A stretch of DNA of 57,333 nt from Eubacteriales bacterium (GTDB lineage Bacteria; Bacillota; Clostridia; Oscillospirales; CAG-272), in assembly GCA_045631445.1 (NCBI GenBank), contig JAZQUS010000039.1, forward strand, positions 1 to 57,333, in the 5' to 3' direction. How positions within the stretch are numbered: the first letter of the stretch is position 1; every line of letters begins with the position of its first letter. Below are positions 15,222-23,437 of this stretch, in pieces. A model generated the notes under the pieces. The model worked only from the letters and a program-made list of their open reading frames with translations, had not been told where the DNA came from and ran no database searches. The position numbers and the translations under genes are program-made.

Positions 15222-17357
15222 TTATTTCTTTTCAAAATAAACAGTTTCAGTATTACTATCAAAATAGATAGTGTAAGTTCCAAGCGCAACTTGAATATTC
15301 ATATTACCACCCTGATATTCAAACGAGGTATTAATCTTGCTTTCATCAACGGTGTTATACCAAGCATTATCTCCGCTTTCTCTATTGTTGTAAATCTTGA
15401 ACTTAAACGTACCCGCATCACCGCTACTTGAATAAGCAGTAAACGTTACGGAGTAGATACCATTTCCAATATGTTGGAGCTTATACTGTGAGTGATTTTG
15501 CCAGTTATTACTATCAAAATTACCGCGAACATAAAGCTCCCATTCCTTTTGAGCAGGAGTTGTTCCAGTATTAGAACCAGAACCCGAACCCGAACCCGAA
15601 CCTGAGCTTGAACCCGCATCGGGATTTGTTGTTGTTCCAACATTCATACTGAATCCACTAATATATTTAGCAAGAGTTGATGCCTTTTTAGTAATATAAT
15701 TACTGTATGACATATTAGAACCATTGGACGTACTTGCGTTAAATGAAACGCCGCGTCCACCGTTATTATACTGTTTGGAAGTGGTTGTATCATCCTTGTA
15801 AAGATTCTTTGCACGAAGATAATATTCCTCAAAAGTAGCAATCTTAAACAAATCGTCAGAAGCAACTGTTTTAAGAACCTCGGTATATTCATTCATATAG
15901 AAGCTTGAATTCAAAATACCCTTTGTGAAAAGAGGATTTTTTTGATTGCTTCCATTACCTATTGCCTTATTACTATAAGGACTATCCTCTGTCATATGGT
16001 TGCCTGATGGGTTCCAATCCTTGTTTACGCCAAGACCTCTGTCGGTATCGTAAGGTATAATCATCATCTTTCCATTGTCTGCACGGAAATAAATGTAACA
16101 GTTATTATAGTTGTTTCTCAAATCGTCGGGATTACCCATCATATATGAAATTGCCGCAAATTTGAGGAAGTTATCAACGTCAACAACTGAAGCAAAAGAT
16201 GTTTTATTGCAAGAATTTGAATTGATTGTGCTAATCAAATTTCTAAGTGATGAATGATCACTTGTCTTTTTATTGGTTTTAAGATCATAAACATAGAATT
16301 TAACCGCGTCCTCATCCTCAACACCATAGGATGAGAAGGATGTGAATGTCGCACCCTCACTTGTCCAACCGAGCTTGTAAAGGTCACCACCAAGCGCCTC
16401 TGCGGGAAGATTTTTTTCAAGGAAGATATCGTCAATTGGCTCATAGAACAACCAAACGCCTGCGTGATCATTGGAAATATCAACGGATGCAAGATTTGTG
16501 TGAGGAGCAAGAACGCCCATTTCACGATATATCTCATAAGAATAAAGTTCTCTAATATGAGTAGAGTCCTCATTCTTATTCCATCTCATATCAATTTTTT
16601 CAAGAGTAGCAAACGTTCTGTTTTTTCTTGCTTTTCTTGCGGAGCTATCTGACCAAACAAGAGCATCACTACCGTAATATTCTTCATCATCAAAGGTTTC
16701 CTTGAAACTGATTTTAAAGTGAACAAGATTATACATTCCATTGCTATCGCTATAAAAGCTTGTTCTTGAGGTGTTACCCTTCATTCTAACGCCAACCTGC
16801 TCAATGATGAACTTCCATTGAGTACCGTCGGGCTTAGTAATTGTAACGTGCAAATCTGCCATTCTGTAAATGGGAGATTTTGAACCCATAGAACTATATT
16901 TTTCATAGTCCTTCTGTATCTTTTTAAGCTCTGAATTACTTATATCAAGATAAAGAGATATGTGATTTTCATAACTGAAAAGCTCTTCAAAAAGGATCAT
17001 TTCATCAATATCGGGATTAAGAATAGGATCATCCTTGGGAATATCTACGTTGCCACCTGTGGTAGTTGTTGTAGTGGATGTAGTTCCCGAAGGTTTATTT
17101 GTAGTAGTAGTTGTTGTTGTAGTTGTTGTAGTAGTGCCCGATGGCTTATTTGTTGTTGTACTACTTGGAAGTGTAGAAGTTGTAGTAGAAGGACGAGTTG
17201 AAGTGCTTGTACTTGAACTACTTGAAGGACGAGTTGTCGAACTTCCTTGATTGGTAGTACTACTAAAAATAGGATTAGTGGGATCAACCATGCCATAGCA
17301 AGAGAAAAGCCCAAGTCCCATAACCAAAATCAAAAGAATTGATAATAATCTTTTCAT
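15222..17357 (-). CDS. CotH kinase-family lipoprotein with Thr/Ser linker and C-terminal carbohydrate-binding-like domain
   Basis: Lipobox LFSC; VGVRMKGNTS, IRELYSYEIYR, DDLRNNYNNCYIY, IIPYDTDRGLG (CotH motifs); C-terminal LYVRGNF..W...FKFK beta-sandwich. Confidence 0.75.
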   Translation of the reverse strand: MKRLLSILLILVMGLGLFSCYGMVDPTNPIFSSTTNQGSSTTRPSSSSSTSTSTRPSTTTSTLPSSTTTNKPSGTTTTTTTTTTTTNKPSGTTSTTTTTTGGNVDIPKDDPILNPDIDEMILFEELFSYENHISLYLDISNSELKKIQKDYEKYSSMGSKSPIYRMADLHVTITKPDGTQWKFIIEQVGVRMKGNTSRTSFYSDSNGMYNLVHFKISFKETFDDEEYYGSDALVWSDSSARKARKNRTFATLEKIDMRWNKNEDSTHIRELYSYEIYREMGVLAPHTNLASVDISNDHAGVWLFYEPIDDIFLEKNLPAEALGGDLYKLGWTSEGATFTSFSSYGVEDEDAVKFYVYDLKTNKKTSDHSSLRNLISTINSNSCNKTSFASVVDVDNFLKFAAISYMMGNPDDLRNNYNNCYIYFRADNGKMMIIPYDTDRGLGVNKDWNPSGNHMTEDSPYSNKAIGNGSNQKNPLFTKGILNSSFYMNEYTEVLKTVASDDLFKIATFEEYYLRAKNLYKDDTTTSKQYNNGGRGVSFNASTSNGSNMSYSNYITKKASTLAKYISGFSMNVGTTTNPDAGSSSGSGSGSGSGSNTGTTPAQKEWELYVRGNFDSNNWQNHSQYKLQHIGNGIYSVTFTAYSSSGDAGTFKFKIYNNRESGDNAWYNTVDESKINTSFEYQGGNMNIQVALGTYTIYFDSNTETVYFEKK
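17060..17262 (-). repeat. Low-complexity Thr/Ser-coding linker with internal duplication
   Basis: ACN-rich tract encoding STTRPSSS / STSTRPSTT and TTTNKPSGTT twice. Confidence 0.8.
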
Positions 17358-17424
17358 GATCTGCTCCTTTATACGCAAATTTATCTATTTTAATTATACA
17401 ATAATTATCCCCATTTGTCAACAA

Positions 17425-20065: not shown

Positions 20066-20809
20066 TTATTTTTTTATAGATATTGTAAATTTGCAATCAG
20101 GATAATGGCAACAAGCCCAATACTCACCGTATCTTCCTCTTTTTTTAATCAAATTCCCCTTGCATTTTGGACAAATATTATTATTCACATAATAATCGTT
20201 ATCAAATTTCTTTTGTTTAATATTTTCAACGTGTTTCCAACGGGATATAGTATCACTTATATTGTTATTTAACAATGTTTCATATATTGATTTCATTTCA
20301 TACGGACTTAGTGTGTATTCACTATACACATTCATTCTACTATTAAGTTCCCAAGGAGAACAAACATAACTTGATTTTATGTATTCTACATTTCCTCTAA
20401 TAAACACCACCAATGAATTAATCGCCACATATTCAGGAAAGAACTGCTTTATAACACAAACATGCTTATAATTTTGCCTAACAGGACTATAAATAGGATG
20501 TTTGACCTTGCCGTAGTTCAAAACCTGTGTCCATTGCTTTTGGTAATCATCACCATAAATTCTTCCTTTGTAATTTTTTGTTTCAATTACATATATTCCT
20601 GATGAATTAATAACAATATGGTCAATTTGAGTTGTATTATCACCATCGGTTCGCAACAATAAATCATGAATAACATATTTTTCTTGTCCATGTGCTTCTG
20701 ATGTTTCACCGATTATTAACTTAATAATAAATTCTCCAATCATCCCTTTAAATGTTGGTGTTTTAACAAATATAAATACAACAATAGCTAATATCAATAA
20801 TATTCCCAT
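20066..20809 (-). CDS. NERD-domain protein with N-terminal TM segment and C-terminal topoisomerase-type C4 zinc ribbon
   Basis: KGMIGE, TQIDHIVI..GIYVIETKNYKG, SPVRQN; CPKCKGNL...GEYWACCHYPDCKFT. Confidence 0.85.
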   Translation of the reverse strand: MGILLILAIVVFIFVKTPTFKGMIGEFIIKLIIGETSEAHGQEKYVIHDLLLRTDGDNTTQIDHIVINSSGIYVIETKNYKGRIYGDDYQKQWTQVLNYGKVKHPIYSPVRQNYKHVCVIKQFFPEYVAINSLVVFIRGNVEYIKSSYVCSPWELNSRMNVYSEYTLSPYEMKSIYETLLNNNISDTISRWKHVENIKQKKFDNDYYVNNNICPKCKGNLIKKRGRYGEYWACCHYPDCKFTISIKK

Positions 20810-21077
20810 AAACTCCCCTTGCAAAAATTTAATAGCTTATATATTTTAACACACTCTTTATACATTGGCAACCCTTTTCTTATTTCTAGCAATACAATTC
20901 ATCAAATTCCCATTTGAGTGGGTTTTCGTAGATGTATTTTGATATTTCTTCAAAATCGCGTTTGTTACGGATTACGTGGTCGTAATAATACCGTTGCCAA
21001 ATATTTTTGCCAATTTCCTTGTTGCAAAATCGTTTGAAGGTTGATACAAACGCAGGCACTACGGAATGTTGCTTAAC

Positions 21078-21105
21078 CGTAGGGGTCGGCGTCCTCGACG
21101 ACCCG
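21078..21105 (+). repeat. GTAG-tagged REP-like palindrome, copy 1 (inside RAYT CDS)
   Basis: CGTAG-GGGTCG-GCGTCCTCGA-CGACCC-G. Confidence 0.8.
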
Positions 21106-21242
21106 TCCTCGCGCACAAACAAAATCATGTGTATGTGATCGGGCATAATCACATATTGTTCAACAGATATATTTTCATAAAAATTATTTAATTGGTTGAT
21201 ATATTTGTCCGCAATTTTTCCATATGCCGTCAATTCAACACG

Positions 21243-21270
21243 CGGGTCGTCGGGGACGTCGACCCCTACG
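21243..21270 (-). repeat. GTAG-tagged REP-like palindrome, copy 2 (inverted, inside RAYT CDS)
   Basis: Reverse complement CGTAG-GGGTCG-ACGTCCCCGA-CGACCC-G; 26/28 identical to copy 1. Confidence 0.8.
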
Positions 21271-21408
21271 ATTTTGGATAATATTCTTCTACGCTTATCC
21301 GTACAAATCGTTATGAAATACGCCCCTGGCTCGGAATAATCGTAATTCTTTAATCTTATTTCTTTTCTCTTCGACAAATTTTCACTCATTTTTGTCACCA
21401 CCAAATAC

Positions 21409-21437
21409 ATTATATCACAAAATCCGCAGATAGACAA
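21409..21437 (-). promoter_or_regulatory. Sigma-A-type promoter of RAYT
   Basis: TTGTCT-17 bp-TATAAT with extended -10 TG; overlaps the glgB terminator. Confidence 0.6.
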
Positions 21438-21451
21438 GTCCATCTGCGGAT
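21422..21451 (-). terminator. Intrinsic terminator of glgB
   Basis: ATCCGCAGAT...ATCTGCGGAT stem followed by TTTT on the minus strand. Confidence 0.7.
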
Positions 21452-21457
21452 AAAATA

Positions 21458-23437
21458 TTATTTCTTAACAACTCTTCTAAGACAAACTGCCGTTCTTGCG
21501 GGAAGATAAATTTGGAACTGACGGTTTTCATTCGTCGAATAAACCTGTGTTTCACTGAGTCTATCCCAACCACCAAACTCATTGCGGTCAGTTGAAAATA
21601 CAACCTTATATTCACCGTTGAACTTGGGCTTGAGATAATATCCCCAATAATGATTTGTGGGGTGGAAATTAACAACGTAAATAAGTCCGTTTCTCTCAAA
21701 CATCATAACCTTATTGTCATCGTCAATCTGCAACCAATGGGGTTCTTTCTCAAATATGCGATATTCCTTTGCAAGCTTAACCATTTCCCTGTCAAATGCC
21801 TGAAGCTGACTGTATTTCAAATCAGGATTATCGGCAATGCTCCACTGACGGCGACAATAGAAATGTGACCAACCGTTGCCCTCTCGCGGGAAGTCAATCC
21901 ATTCTGGATGACCGAATTCGTTACCCATAAAGTTGAGATAACCCTCACCGCCAAGAGCATTCGTAACAAGACGAATCAACTTATGAAGAGCCATACCTCT
22001 TTCAACAACCATATCGTTTGACCACTTGCCCATATCAGTATACATCTTTGCATCGCAAAGACGGAACATAAGTGTTTTGTCACCAACAAGCGCTTGGTCA
22101 TGTGACTCTGCATATCCGATATACTTTTCTTGTGGACGTCGACCTGTAAGCTCGCACCAAATGTGCCACATGCTCCAATCCTCGTCGCGAACGTCCCTAA
22201 CAAGTCTTATCCACATATCAGGTGAGCCCATAGCAAGACGGTAATCAAAACCAATACCGCCATCCGCAATCGGCAAACACATACCCGGCATAGCGGACAT
22301 ATCCTCTGCAATAGTAATCGCGTTAGGATTAACCTCATAAATGAGTTCAGTCGCAAGCTGAAGATAAGTAACCGCCTCAGTATCAGTATTAAGTGAGAAA
22401 TATTTAGAATAATCAGTAAATGCAGTACCAAGACCGTGATCGTGATAAAGCATTGAAGTCACACCGTCAAAGCGGAAGCCGTCAAAACGGTATTCTTCCA
22501 TCCAGAATTTAAGATTTGAAAGAAGGAAGTGAATAACCTCTGGCTTGCCGTAATTGAAAAGTTTTGTTCCCCAAGCAGGATGATTACCCTTGTCTCCTGC
22601 ATGGAAATACTGCGTAACAGTACCGTCAAACTCAGCAATTCCCTCTGCAGTATTGCTAACCGCGTGAGAGTGCACAACGTCAAGTAGCACGGCAATCCCC
22701 ATTTTATGAGCAGTATCAATAAGACGCTTCAAATCATTGCATTTACCAAATTTAGATGAAGCAGCAAAGAAATTCGAAACCTGATAACCAAATGATCCAT
22801 AATAAGGATGCTCCATAATAGCCATAATTTGAATGGTATTATAACCCGCAGCCTTTATTCGAGGCAAAATATTGTCGGTAAACTCGTTATAAGTACCAAC
22901 CCCTTCTCTTTCCTGCGCCATACCGATATGAGTTTCATATATAAAGAGCTTTTTCTGAGGTTTGAAATTATTTTTCTGCCAAACATACTCGGGCTCGTCC
23001 ACAATAGCACCCGACCAAGTATAATTATATGGATCCTGAAGCACTCTCTTACAGTAAGAAGGAATTCTCTCAAGATAGCTATCCCAATGCTTAACAATTG
23101 TTTTAACGCGGCAATCATCCCAAAGTGTCCTCTGGTCGTGGATAAAGATTTCAAAAATACCGTTGCCAAGATTGTTAAGTCTATGTGACCATCTATTCCA
23201 ACCATTGAAGTCACCCATAAGATAAACTTCGTGCGCAGCGGGTGCCCACTCGCGATAGTACCAACCGTTTTCTACCTTATGGAAACCAAAATAGTGATGA
23301 CCGTTTGCAAAATCAATGAGTTTACCATTGTCACCAACAAGAAGTCTTTTCATGTTGTAATAGTTGTTCATTCTGAGTTGAATGTCTGACTCAAATGATT
23401 TGAGCGCGGGGTCGTATTCAAAAATCTTGTAGCTCAT
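21458..23437 (-). CDS. glgB: 1,4-alpha-glucan branching enzyme (GH13)
   Basis: Start reassigned to MSYKIFEYD (ATG 23437, RBS GGAGG); REWAP, FGYQVSNFFA, LDVVHSH, GFRFDGVTSM, AEDMS, YAESHDQ, FMGNEFGHPEW. Confidence 0.92.
   Translation of the reverse strand: MSYKIFEYDPALKSFESDIQLRMNNYYNMKRLLVGDNGKLIDFANGHHYFGFHKVENGWYYREWAPAAHEVYLMGDFNGWNRWSHRLNNLGNGIFEIFIHDQRTLWDDCRVKTIVKHWDSYLERIPSYCKRVLQDPYNYTWSGAIVDEPEYVWQKNNFKPQKKLFIYETHIGMAQEREGVGTYNEFTDNILPRIKAAGYNTIQIMAIMEHPYYGSFGYQVSNFFAASSKFGKCNDLKRLIDTAHKMGIAVLLDVVHSHAVSNTAEGIAEFDGTVTQYFHAGDKGNHPAWGTKLFNYGKPEVIHFLLSNLKFWMEEYRFDGFRFDGVTSMLYHDHGLGTAFTDYSKYFSLNTDTEAVTYLQLATELIYEVNPNAITIAEDMSAMPGMCLPIADGGIGFDYRLAMGSPDMWIRLVRDVRDEDWSMWHIWCELTGRRPQEKYIGYAESHDQALVGDKTLMFRLCDAKMYTDMGKWSNDMVVERGMALHKLIRLVTNALGGEGYLNFMGNEFGHPEWIDFPREGNGWSHFYCRRQWSIADNPDLKYSQLQAFDREMVKLAKEYRIFEKEPHWLQIDDDNKVMMFERNGLIYVVNFHPTNHYWGYYLKPKFNGEYKVVFSTDRNEFGGWDRLSETQVYSTNENRQFQIYLPARTAVCLRRVVKK

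What the first reader, a model, noticed from the sequence alone, without database searches (positions are those of the whole stretch)
21078..21270. RAYT transposase with its own REP pair embedded in frame, bracketing the HUH motif
Seen: two 28-bp inverted copies (26/28 identical) of CGTAG-GGGTCG-RCGTCCYCGA-CGACCC-G at 21078-21105 and 21243-21270, each a GTAG tag plus GC-rich hairpin, within an AT-rich gene. They are translated as VGVDVPDDP and GSSRTPTPT and enclose 137 bp containing the PDHIH codons. I saw no flanking REPs. Known: classic RAYTs (E. coli TnpA-REP, Pseudomonas) act on GTAG-REPs that flank the gene. Inference: the enzyme's substrate lies within its own ORF, forming a REPIN-like unit whose cargo is the active-site segment; this could allow self-cleavage, autoregulation via a long mRNA/ssDNA stem, or module exchange between RAYT alleles.
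Basis: partly seen in the sequence, partly recalled or inferred. Interest (0 to 1): 0.75.

Follow-up and report, generated by a model that had tools for sequence, protein, structure and literature searches.

The report
Swappable REP-specificity cassette inside RAYT gene
This gut-clostridial DNA-hairpin transposase gene carries two inverted copies of its likely target hairpin in frame (a published oddity of this enzyme subclass), and relatives show the gene's middle, holding both hairpins, the metal-binding motif and the predicted hairpin-reading helix, being exchanged as one block, so a new specificity would arrive together with its own target.

Summary
An intact RAYT gene (20886-21389, minus strand) holds two inverted GTAG-REPs (26/28 identical) around the HUH codons; no other REP was found in the window. 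In-frame REPs inside tnpA-REP genes were published for subclass 2.4 (PMC6006769), and this scan saw the conserved pair earlier (e1-4961498).

The pair sits at the same two loops in 117 of 137 and 57 of 93 relatives. Both copies change together across about 30 REP types, are kept as DNA hairpins rather than as peptides, and match an extragenic family of the host.

I found no prior description of the following: the gene is a mosaic. Shared N- and C-terminal arms frame a 315-bp middle (REP, HUH, REP, helix alphaC) that comes in at least six types. One public contig continues into the same neighbouring gene with a different, 333-letter middle. Helix alphaC co-varies with REP type more than any other segment.

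Breakpoints lie outside the REPs, so exchange likely occurs by homologous recombination, not at REP ends. A selected mRNA stem, inversion and excision are unsupported; self-cleavage is untested. Verdict: new variant of a known kind; interest 0.58.

The parts
20886..21389 (-). Intact RAYT / TnpA-REP gene, 167 aa, ATG at 21389
   Evidence: fold match to 4ER8 Z 12.7, rmsd 3.7, 126 aligned
21243..21270 (-). REP copy 1 (site 1): GTAG on the coding strand; encodes VGVDVPDDP in a beta-hairpin excursion between beta1 and alphaA
21078..21105 (+). REP copy 2 (site 2): GTAG on the template strand; its complement encodes GSSRTPTPT in the low-confidence loop just before helix alphaC
21129..21137 (-). HUH motif codons (H85-I86-H87)
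   Evidence: sequence; (H87 invariant, H85 nearly invariant)
21012..21062 (-). Helix alphaC (residues 110-126), aligned to the E. coli helix that inserts into the REP hairpin minor groove; co-varies with REP type
20967..20999 (-). W131-Q132...D137-H138...R141, aligned to E. coli W94/Q95/E100/H101/R104 (GTAG-contacting region)
20922..20936 (-). Catalytic Y152 and N156 (YxxxNP motif of class 2)
   Evidence: invariant in 116 sequences; motif definition from PMC6006769
20986..21300 (-). Exchangeable middle module (315 bp): REP1, HUH, REP2, alphaC and the start of the WQ strand
21301..21389 (-). N-terminal homology arm, closer to type-C paralogs of the same genome (0.84-0.86) than to some same-type alleles (0.63-0.72)
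20886..20985 (-). C-terminal homology arm carrying the catalytic tyrosine, shared with other REP types
21409..21451 (-). Predicted sigma-70 promoter (TTGTCT-17-TATAAT, extended -10) whose -35 lies inside a 13-pair palindrome (21422-21451)
   Evidence: consensus match only; similar element upstream of several relatives at other loci
20066..20809 (-). NERD + topoisomerase Zn-ribbon gene inserted together with the RAYT at this site; not shown to belong to the system

Best explanation
The two repeats are a REP/inverted-REP pair, likely the enzyme's own substrate type, held in two tolerant loops of a mosaic RAYT gene whose middle (both REPs, the HUH strand and the predicted hairpin-reading helix alphaC) is exchanged as one block between paralogs, likely by homologous recombination in the conserved N- and C-terminal arms. 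SHOWN: the pair is conserved in position and frame, both copies change together, they are kept as GTAG-strand DNA hairpins, they match an extragenic family of the host, and the middle has a different history from the arms. INFERRED from E. coli TnpA-REP: the protein binds single-stranded GTAG+hairpin through alphaC and the WQ strand and nicks at CT sites, one REP serving each strand. INFERRED: because specificity moves between alleles by an exchange inside the gene, only REPs lying inside the exchanged block stay linked to the helix that reads them. The internal pair would therefore replace the flanking REPs of a classic REPtron and seed, or be refreshed from, the genome's REP family.
For: Pair present in 117 of 137 distinct homologs and 57 of 93 in a second, more divergent set. 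Identity between the two copies is 0.94 within genes against 0.44 between genes; frames are (0,2) in 103 of 117. Codons are fixed: Val GTA 93 of 93 vs 138 of 559 elsewhere; Gly GGG 92 of 93 vs 33 of 331; Pro CCT 108 of 110 vs 74 of 455. Identity stops at the REP edges; copies differ by 16 compensatory double changes; G-A and G-T pairs dominate on the GTAG strand at both sites. Type-A extragenic REPs occur in 10 of 11 genus genomes with a type-A RAYT and 3 of 12 without. The sub-variant follows the internal copies: G003 33 of 36, G010 17 of 17, G018 21 of 26, G009 6 of 8 (counted by hand). Flanking REPs occur at 14 of 19 genes lacking the pair vs 26 of 105 with it, and 20 of 36 vs 4 of 57. Mosaic: 7 of 8 hand-picked triplets reach p=0.001, with the window gene's breakpoints near -160 and +152 nt from the HUH. 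20 of 37 genus genes have a best-triplet chi-square above 40 (no multiple-testing control); 18 of the 20 best segments enclose both REPs and most or all of alphaC. The middle tree groups largely by REP type while arm trees mix types. 17 of the 28 proteins with both arms close to the query carry a non-A middle with 0.3-0.38 identity (61 of 76 hits examined). Run X6 contig 11 matches the C arm, the N arm, the promoter and glgB but has 333 other letters in place of 20986-21300, the length of C/R-type middles. Partial correlation of REP distance is 0.31 with alphaC and at most 0.16 with other segments. E. coli alphaC inserts into the hairpin minor groove (PMC3479197).
Against: No binding or cleavage data exist for this clade. 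The pair is dispensable: only 75 of 149 cluster representatives keep both peptide signatures (crude regex), and 11 of 93 genes in the second set show neither internal nor flanking REPs. Three genus genomes have type-A REPs without a type-A RAYT found, one with 70 copies, and this genome's 33-copy type D has no RAYT in the assembly. At a 7-nt stem label only 81 of 106 genes have matching sites. G005 shows no sub-variant match (6 vs 5). Related genes are not independent, so the Fisher and correlation values overstate. The 333 letters of the X6 contig were not shown; its type is inferred from length, and one type-B gene has the same length. Arm trees are short (86 and 97 columns) and weakly supported. 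One triplet was not significant (p=0.28). Linkage as the reason for keeping the REPs is an inference.
Confidence: 0.6

Rival explanations
1. Neutral landing sites: the RAYT acts near its own gene and REPs repeatedly land in, or overwrite, the two loops that tolerate them. The pair does nothing, and the mosaicism is ordinary paralog recombination.
For: Both peptides sit in low-confidence loops. Tandem REP duplications occur at these sites in 8 intact genes. Many lineages lost one or both copies. Quentin et al. read intragenic REPs as tolerated insertions.
Against: One copy per site, in fixed opposite orientation and frame, across relatives down to about 35-40% protein identity. Absence of the pair goes with flanking REPs in two sets. 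Compensatory changes keep each hairpin.
Confidence: 0.2
2. Self-nicking: the enzyme uses the internal REPs to nick its own gene on transient single-stranded DNA, as feedback or to start the recombination that swaps the middle.
For: E. coli TnpA-REP cuts at C|T within the inverted REP and over more than 400 nt on both sides of a bound REP (PMC3333891). Both copies keep the GTAG-strand polarity. GTAG-contacting and catalytic residues are conserved.
Against: Breakpoints fall in the conserved arms, as plain homologous recombination predicts, and not at REP ends. No read evidence. Compatible with the best explanation rather than exclusive.
Confidence: 0.2
3. RNA-level autoregulation: the two copies pair in the mRNA as a long stem that closes the HUH segment and lowers expression.
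For: Predicted stem of -84.6 kcal/mol, z -7.3.
Against: Any inverted pair gives this fold. Differences between copies show no bias to mRNA-compatible wobbles (27 vs 33), and 41 of 101 are transversions that break the long stem. Compensation is within each hairpin, and identity does not extend into the flanks.
Confidence: 0.07
4. Invertible or excisable active-site segment: recombination between the two REPs flips or removes the HUH segment as an on/off switch.
For: Inverted geometry. One contig joined 21104 to 21243.
Against: That joint has 27 letters on its short side and an unknown middle, as any extragenic REP doublet would give. No strand-changing joint was listed in 8 runs (contigs drop rare variants). 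My homolog pipeline required an HUH, so it could not count deleted alleles.
Confidence: 0.03

Closest known systems
TnpA-Y1 subclass 2.4 (= RAYT group 4 of Bertels 2017) with intragenic REPs; Quentin et al. 2018, PMC6006769
   Same: Class-2 motifs (HUH, WQ, YxxxNP), variable beta3-alphaC insertion, in-frame REPs inside the gene, long REPs with a G-C foot.
   Different: [quoted passage not shown] In the parts I read it describes no fixed inverted pair with one copy upstream of the HUH, no joint change of the copies and no exchangeable middle. Four of six stem prefixes I searched, including this gene's, are absent from its Table S1. I could not see Figure S10, which may show such pairs. Distant relatives examined here lack the upstream copy.
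E. coli TnpA-REP and its REPtron/BIMEs (PDB 4ER8; PMC3333891, PMC3479197)
   Same: Same fold (Z 12.7), aligned GTAG-contacting residues, imperfect stem with a purine mismatch, REP plus inverted REP with a linker.
   Different: There the REPs flank the gene and the gene sits at one locus. Here the pair is inside, the linker encodes the HUH strand, four paralogs coexist (two frameshifted), and alleles occupy several variably filled loci.
Group 3 RAYT/REPIN systems (PMC8266576; RAYT-REP coevolution, PMC2817692 seen as a listing only)
   Same: REP sequence tracks the RAYT phylogeny (38 changes vs 84 in shuffles).
   Different: No intragenic REPs were described in the parts read. PMC8266576 states there is no evidence of tnpA-REP mobility, whereas this site is empty in 17 of 22 sister genomes.
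Specificity-domain exchange in type I restriction hsdS genes (recalled, not checked by any search)
   Same: A variable recognition segment is swapped by recombination in conserved flanking sequence.
   Different: There the exchanged segment does not contain the DNA target; here it carries two copies of the likely target.

Membership tests
RAYT / TnpA-REP (TnpA-Y1 class 2) | HUH motif plus catalytic Tyr in YxxxNP | tested here: met
   H85-I86-H87 and Y152-I-Y-E-N156-P157 (sequence)
RAYT / TnpA-REP (TnpA-Y1 class 2) | Y1_Tnp family and TnpA-REP fold | tested here: met
   PF01797 above cut-off; 4ER8 best by sequence (E 4.4e-6) and by fold (Z 12.7). NF047646 scores 70.5, under its cut-off of 80
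RAYT / TnpA-REP (TnpA-Y1 class 2) | GTAG-contacting residues W94/Q95/E100/H101/R104 | tested here: met
   W131, Q132, D137, H138, R141 align to them
RAYT / TnpA-REP (TnpA-Y1 class 2) | Associated GTAG-REP family dispersed in the genome | tested here: met
   11 type-A copies, 9 outside this gene; family tracks the gene across the genus
RAYT / TnpA-REP (TnpA-Y1 class 2) | Binds and nicks single-stranded REP at CT | not testable with these tools
   needs purified protein
Classic REPtron | Gene flanked by REPs/BIMEs | tested here: not met
   no GTAGGG hairpin on the contig outside the gene; the pair inside works like one BIME
Subclass 2.4 (RAYT group 4) | In-frame REP insertions in the gene and variable beta3-alphaC loop | tested here: met
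   definition
Subclass 2.4 (RAYT group 4) | Motifs NH[IFV]H, WQ, YIxNNP; median HUH-Y distance 88 | tested here: inconclusive
   DHIH here (NHIH in the alignment consensus), WQ, YIYENP; distance 67
Subclass 2.4 (RAYT group 4) | Assignment by the authors' profiles or tree | not testable with these tools
   their HMMs and reference proteins were not available
IS200/IS605 transposase (subclass 1.1) | YxxxQ motif, near-identical multicopy elements | tested here: not met
   motif is YxxxNP; paralogs are 41-62% identical over their main segments; NF033573 scores 19.5 vs cut-off 55

The most novel reading that the evidence does not exclude
A self-diversifying, mobile RAYT: the enzyme nicks its own gene from the internal REPs, and those nicks drive exchange of the REP-HUH-REP-alphaC cassette between paralogs and entry of the gene, with passenger genes, into new sites just upstream of terminators. 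Enzyme specificity and target would then be one selfish unit written in the same 315 bp.
Probability: 0.2. Interest if true: 0.85.

Novelty: new variant of a known kind. Interest (0 to 1): 0.58.

Why it matters
How a RAYT and its REPs stay matched while both diverge is open, and no subclass 2.4 enzyme appears among the experimentally studied ones in the papers read. Here each gene carries a label of its likely substrate, giving more than 170 natural alphaC-REP pairs over about 30 REP types. At least six middles exist on nearly the same arms, so recognition rules can be tested by swapping one block. It also offers a reason for the intragenic REPs that the 2018 paper noted only as tolerated insertions, and shows RAYT genes gained or lost at several loci, against the usual picture of a fixed single-copy gene.

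Tried and rejected
Reads: only assembled contigs were available, and no run held half of the stretch's words. Eight runs showed no inversion; the 21104-21243 joint was rejected as an extragenic doublet. The one RNA run laid (X5) cannot show expression.

A selected long mRNA stem was rejected. REP ends as breakpoints were rejected.

Peptide-level conservation was rejected: codons are fixed while peptides vary, and 9 of 117 genes use another frame at site 1. Template switching between the two copies with co-converted flanks was disfavoured because identity ends at the REP.

Slower evolution of the arms as the cause of the mosaic was disfavoured: the window gene's N arm is 0.86 identical to a type-C paralog but 0.70 to a same-type allele whose interior is 0.88 identical. 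Misassembly was disfavoured because the shared arms are about 85% identical, not identical.

'Arms simply follow the chromosomal slot' holds only in part: same-slot, different-type pairs show N 0.66 and C 0.76 against 0.63 and 0.69 for different slots. Extragenic spacers are not derived from the gene.

Carriage on mobile elements is rare: 6 viral loci, one close, and 4 plasmid records. A PF01797 search found no further RAYT for types D and E in this assembly; it also missed two known paralogs, so it is weak. The treekit change counts failed and were not used. The 25 genes flagged 'broken' include motif mismatches, so no pseudogene rate is claimed.

Full report
OBSERVATION. The minus-strand ORF 20886-21389 encodes a 167-aa HUH/Y1 protein. 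Its best solved relative is E. coli TnpA-REP by sequence and by fold (Z 12.7, rmsd 3.7, 126 aligned). The two 28-mers are 26/28 identical, inverted, and 137 nt apart. GTAG tags point outward, so one REP is readable on each strand. In the model (mean pLDDT 82) copy 1 encodes part of a beta-hairpin excursion and copy 2 a disordered loop just before helix alphaC. No other GTAGGG hairpin lies on the contig.

THE GENOME. It holds four RAYT paralogs: this one (REP type A), C135 (type B), and two frameshifted genes on C7 and C23 (type C). Each has its own internal inverted pair, and each type also occurs outside the genes: A 11 copies, B 5, C 53. Types D (33) and E (6) have no RAYT in this 95%-complete assembly. 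Type A is therefore a minor family here.

WHAT IS PUBLISHED. Quentin et al. [quoted passage not shown] Figure S10 shows these insertions but is an image I could not see, and it may bear on novelty. I read passages of PMC3733652, PMC5581495, bioRxiv 10.1101/2021.07.10.451892, PMC3333891 and PMC3479197, and parts 1, 4 and 5 of PMC8266576. PMC2817692 was seen as a listing only. Five searches returned no title or abstract describing a fixed HUH-bracketing pair or an exchangeable RAYT middle; subscription journals are not covered. A word search for mosaicism found no note holding all the words.

THE PAIR IS A CLADE TRAIT KEPT AS DNA. Of 150 loci, 144 had a detectable HUH and 7 more were dropped (1 with N, 3 at edges, 3 duplicates). 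Of the 137 left, 117 carry the inverted pair at the same two sites, against 2 of 5000 random windows. A second set of 101 loci (7 duplicates and 1 without HUH dropped) gave 57 of 93. Named relatives are gut Clostridia MAGs and Ruminococcus. The Chloroflexota and Bacteroidota plasmid genes and the most distant Bacillota genes lacked the upstream copy. Only 75 of 149 cluster representatives keep both peptide signatures, so the pair is common but dispensable.

Copies are 0.94 identical within a gene and 0.44 between genes. Val, Gly and Pro codons at the REP feet are fixed (93 of 93, 92 of 93, 108 of 110) while the peptides vary. Identity stops at the REP edge. Among 86 distinct pairs, copies differ by 16 compensatory double changes, 18 single stem changes and 41 loop changes, and G-A and G-T pairs dominate on the GTAG strand at both sites. 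Differences show no bias to mRNA wobble pairs (27 vs 33; 41 transversions). Selection, or copying, therefore acts on each single-strand DNA hairpin and not on the long RNA stem that folding predicts.

THE INTERNAL REP IS LIKELY COGNATE. On a tree built without the REP peptides (106 genes) REP type needs 38 changes against 84 in shuffles, though only 81 of 106 genes match at both sites by a 7-nt label. Extragenic type-A REPs occur in 10 of 11 genus genomes with a type-A gene and 3 of 12 without. The commonest extragenic sub-variant follows the internal copies in G003, G009, G010, G018 and G019 but not G005 (counted by hand). The same search for type B found it in 19 of 22 sister genomes, too widespread to discriminate. 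Genes without the pair usually have flanking REPs (14 of 19 vs 26 of 105; 20 of 36 vs 4 of 57). Helix alphaC aligns with the E. coli helix that enters the hairpin minor groove and is the segment most correlated with REP distance (partial 0.31 vs at most 0.16), with distinct motifs per REP class. Kin are not independent in any of these counts.

THE GENE IS A MOSAIC. The window gene's N arm is 0.84-0.86 and its C region 0.83-0.85 identical to the type-C paralogs, while the interior is 0.49 and alphaC 0.34-0.37. Triplet tests put breakpoints near -160 and +152 nt from the HUH (7 of 8 triplets p=0.001). Across 37 genus genes, 20 have a best-triplet chi-square above 40. One of these segments lies wholly in the N arm and one starts just inside the first REP; the other 18 enclose both REPs and most or all of alphaC (best-of-many, uncorrected). 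The middle tree groups largely by REP type and the arm trees mix types, with weak support.

A search with the C-terminal 40 residues (61 of 76 hits examined) found 28 proteins with both arms close to the query, 17 of them with a non-A middle, each with its own REP peptides and alphaC. In run X6 one contig matches 20936-20985 without difference and 21301-21600, reaching into glgB, but has 333 other letters in place of the 315 between. A contig in X7 does the same at another locus. Both lengths equal those of C/R-type middles; the letters themselves were not shown. Five further loci in the genus each hold different REP types in different species.

THE SITE. glgB and the aldo-keto reductase gene are adjacent in 17 of 22 sister genomes, filled in 2 and undetermined in 3. 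Ten empty sites read directly show only a terminator hairpin, and the three filled sites have different junctions just after the glgB stop. How the gene enters such sites is unexplained.

MECHANISM. Shown: conserved pair, DNA-level upkeep, match to a host family, exchange of the middle. Inferred: binding and nicking as in E. coli, where cuts fall at C|T in the inverted REP and more than 400 nt away; exchange by homologous recombination in the arms; and retention of the REPs because only copies inside the exchanged block stay with the helix that reads them (confidence 0.6). Neutral landing (0.2) and self-nicking (0.2) remain open; an RNA stem (0.07) and an invertible switch (0.03) are unlikely.

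VERDICT. The feature is real and its core is published. The exchangeable cassette that carries target and recognition helix together was not found in the literature searched, and it makes RAYT specificity directly testable. New variant of a known kind; interest 0.58.

Noticed in passing
window 21409-21451; upstream of L004, L005, L006, L016, L036, L042, L069: A palindrome centred on the predicted -35 box, followed by TG-n-TATAAT, precedes RAYT genes at several different loci; its arms vary between alleles. Possible operator or terminator-promoter overlap.
   Followed up: partly
window 20066-20809; L012, L055: The NERD + Zn-ribbon gene follows a RAYT at three different loci in three genomes, so passenger genes move between these sites.
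   Followed up: partly
L002, L003, L007, L010, L013, L025 and relatives: RAYT genes of this genus lie in a few variable sites, often between a host gene's stop codon and a terminator, with changing small genes (NUDIX, pyrophosphatase-like, HIT, 2H-ligase-like, NERD). Cassette-like; mechanism unknown.
   Followed up: partly
L151-L159, L166, L168: Extragenic type-A doublets have GTAG tags pointing inward, the reverse of the intragenic pair, with about 84-nt spacers holding an inner dyad and shared motifs 30-45 nt beyond each REP. They look like a larger MITE-like unit.
   Followed up: no
G000 C97:12198-12529 and many contig ends: Type C and type D REPs form heterodimers and a 127-bp tandem array. 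Type C is the most abundant family although both type-C RAYT genes are frameshifted.
   Followed up: no
L165, L007, L014, L118; P0007, P0008, P0009: In-frame tandem duplications of the REP at either site; in L165 the linker resembles flanks of extragenic REPs, hinting at insertion from the genomic pool.
   Followed up: partly
P0271: Site-1 peptide of the R type with site-2 peptide and alphaC of the C type: a likely crossover inside the middle between two close types.
   Followed up: no
G021: 70 type-A-like REPs with only a decayed type-A-like RAYT found.
   Followed up: no
window 15222-17378 (-): 718-aa predicted lipoprotein with long Thr/Ser and Gly-Ser linkers; not examined.
   Followed up: no
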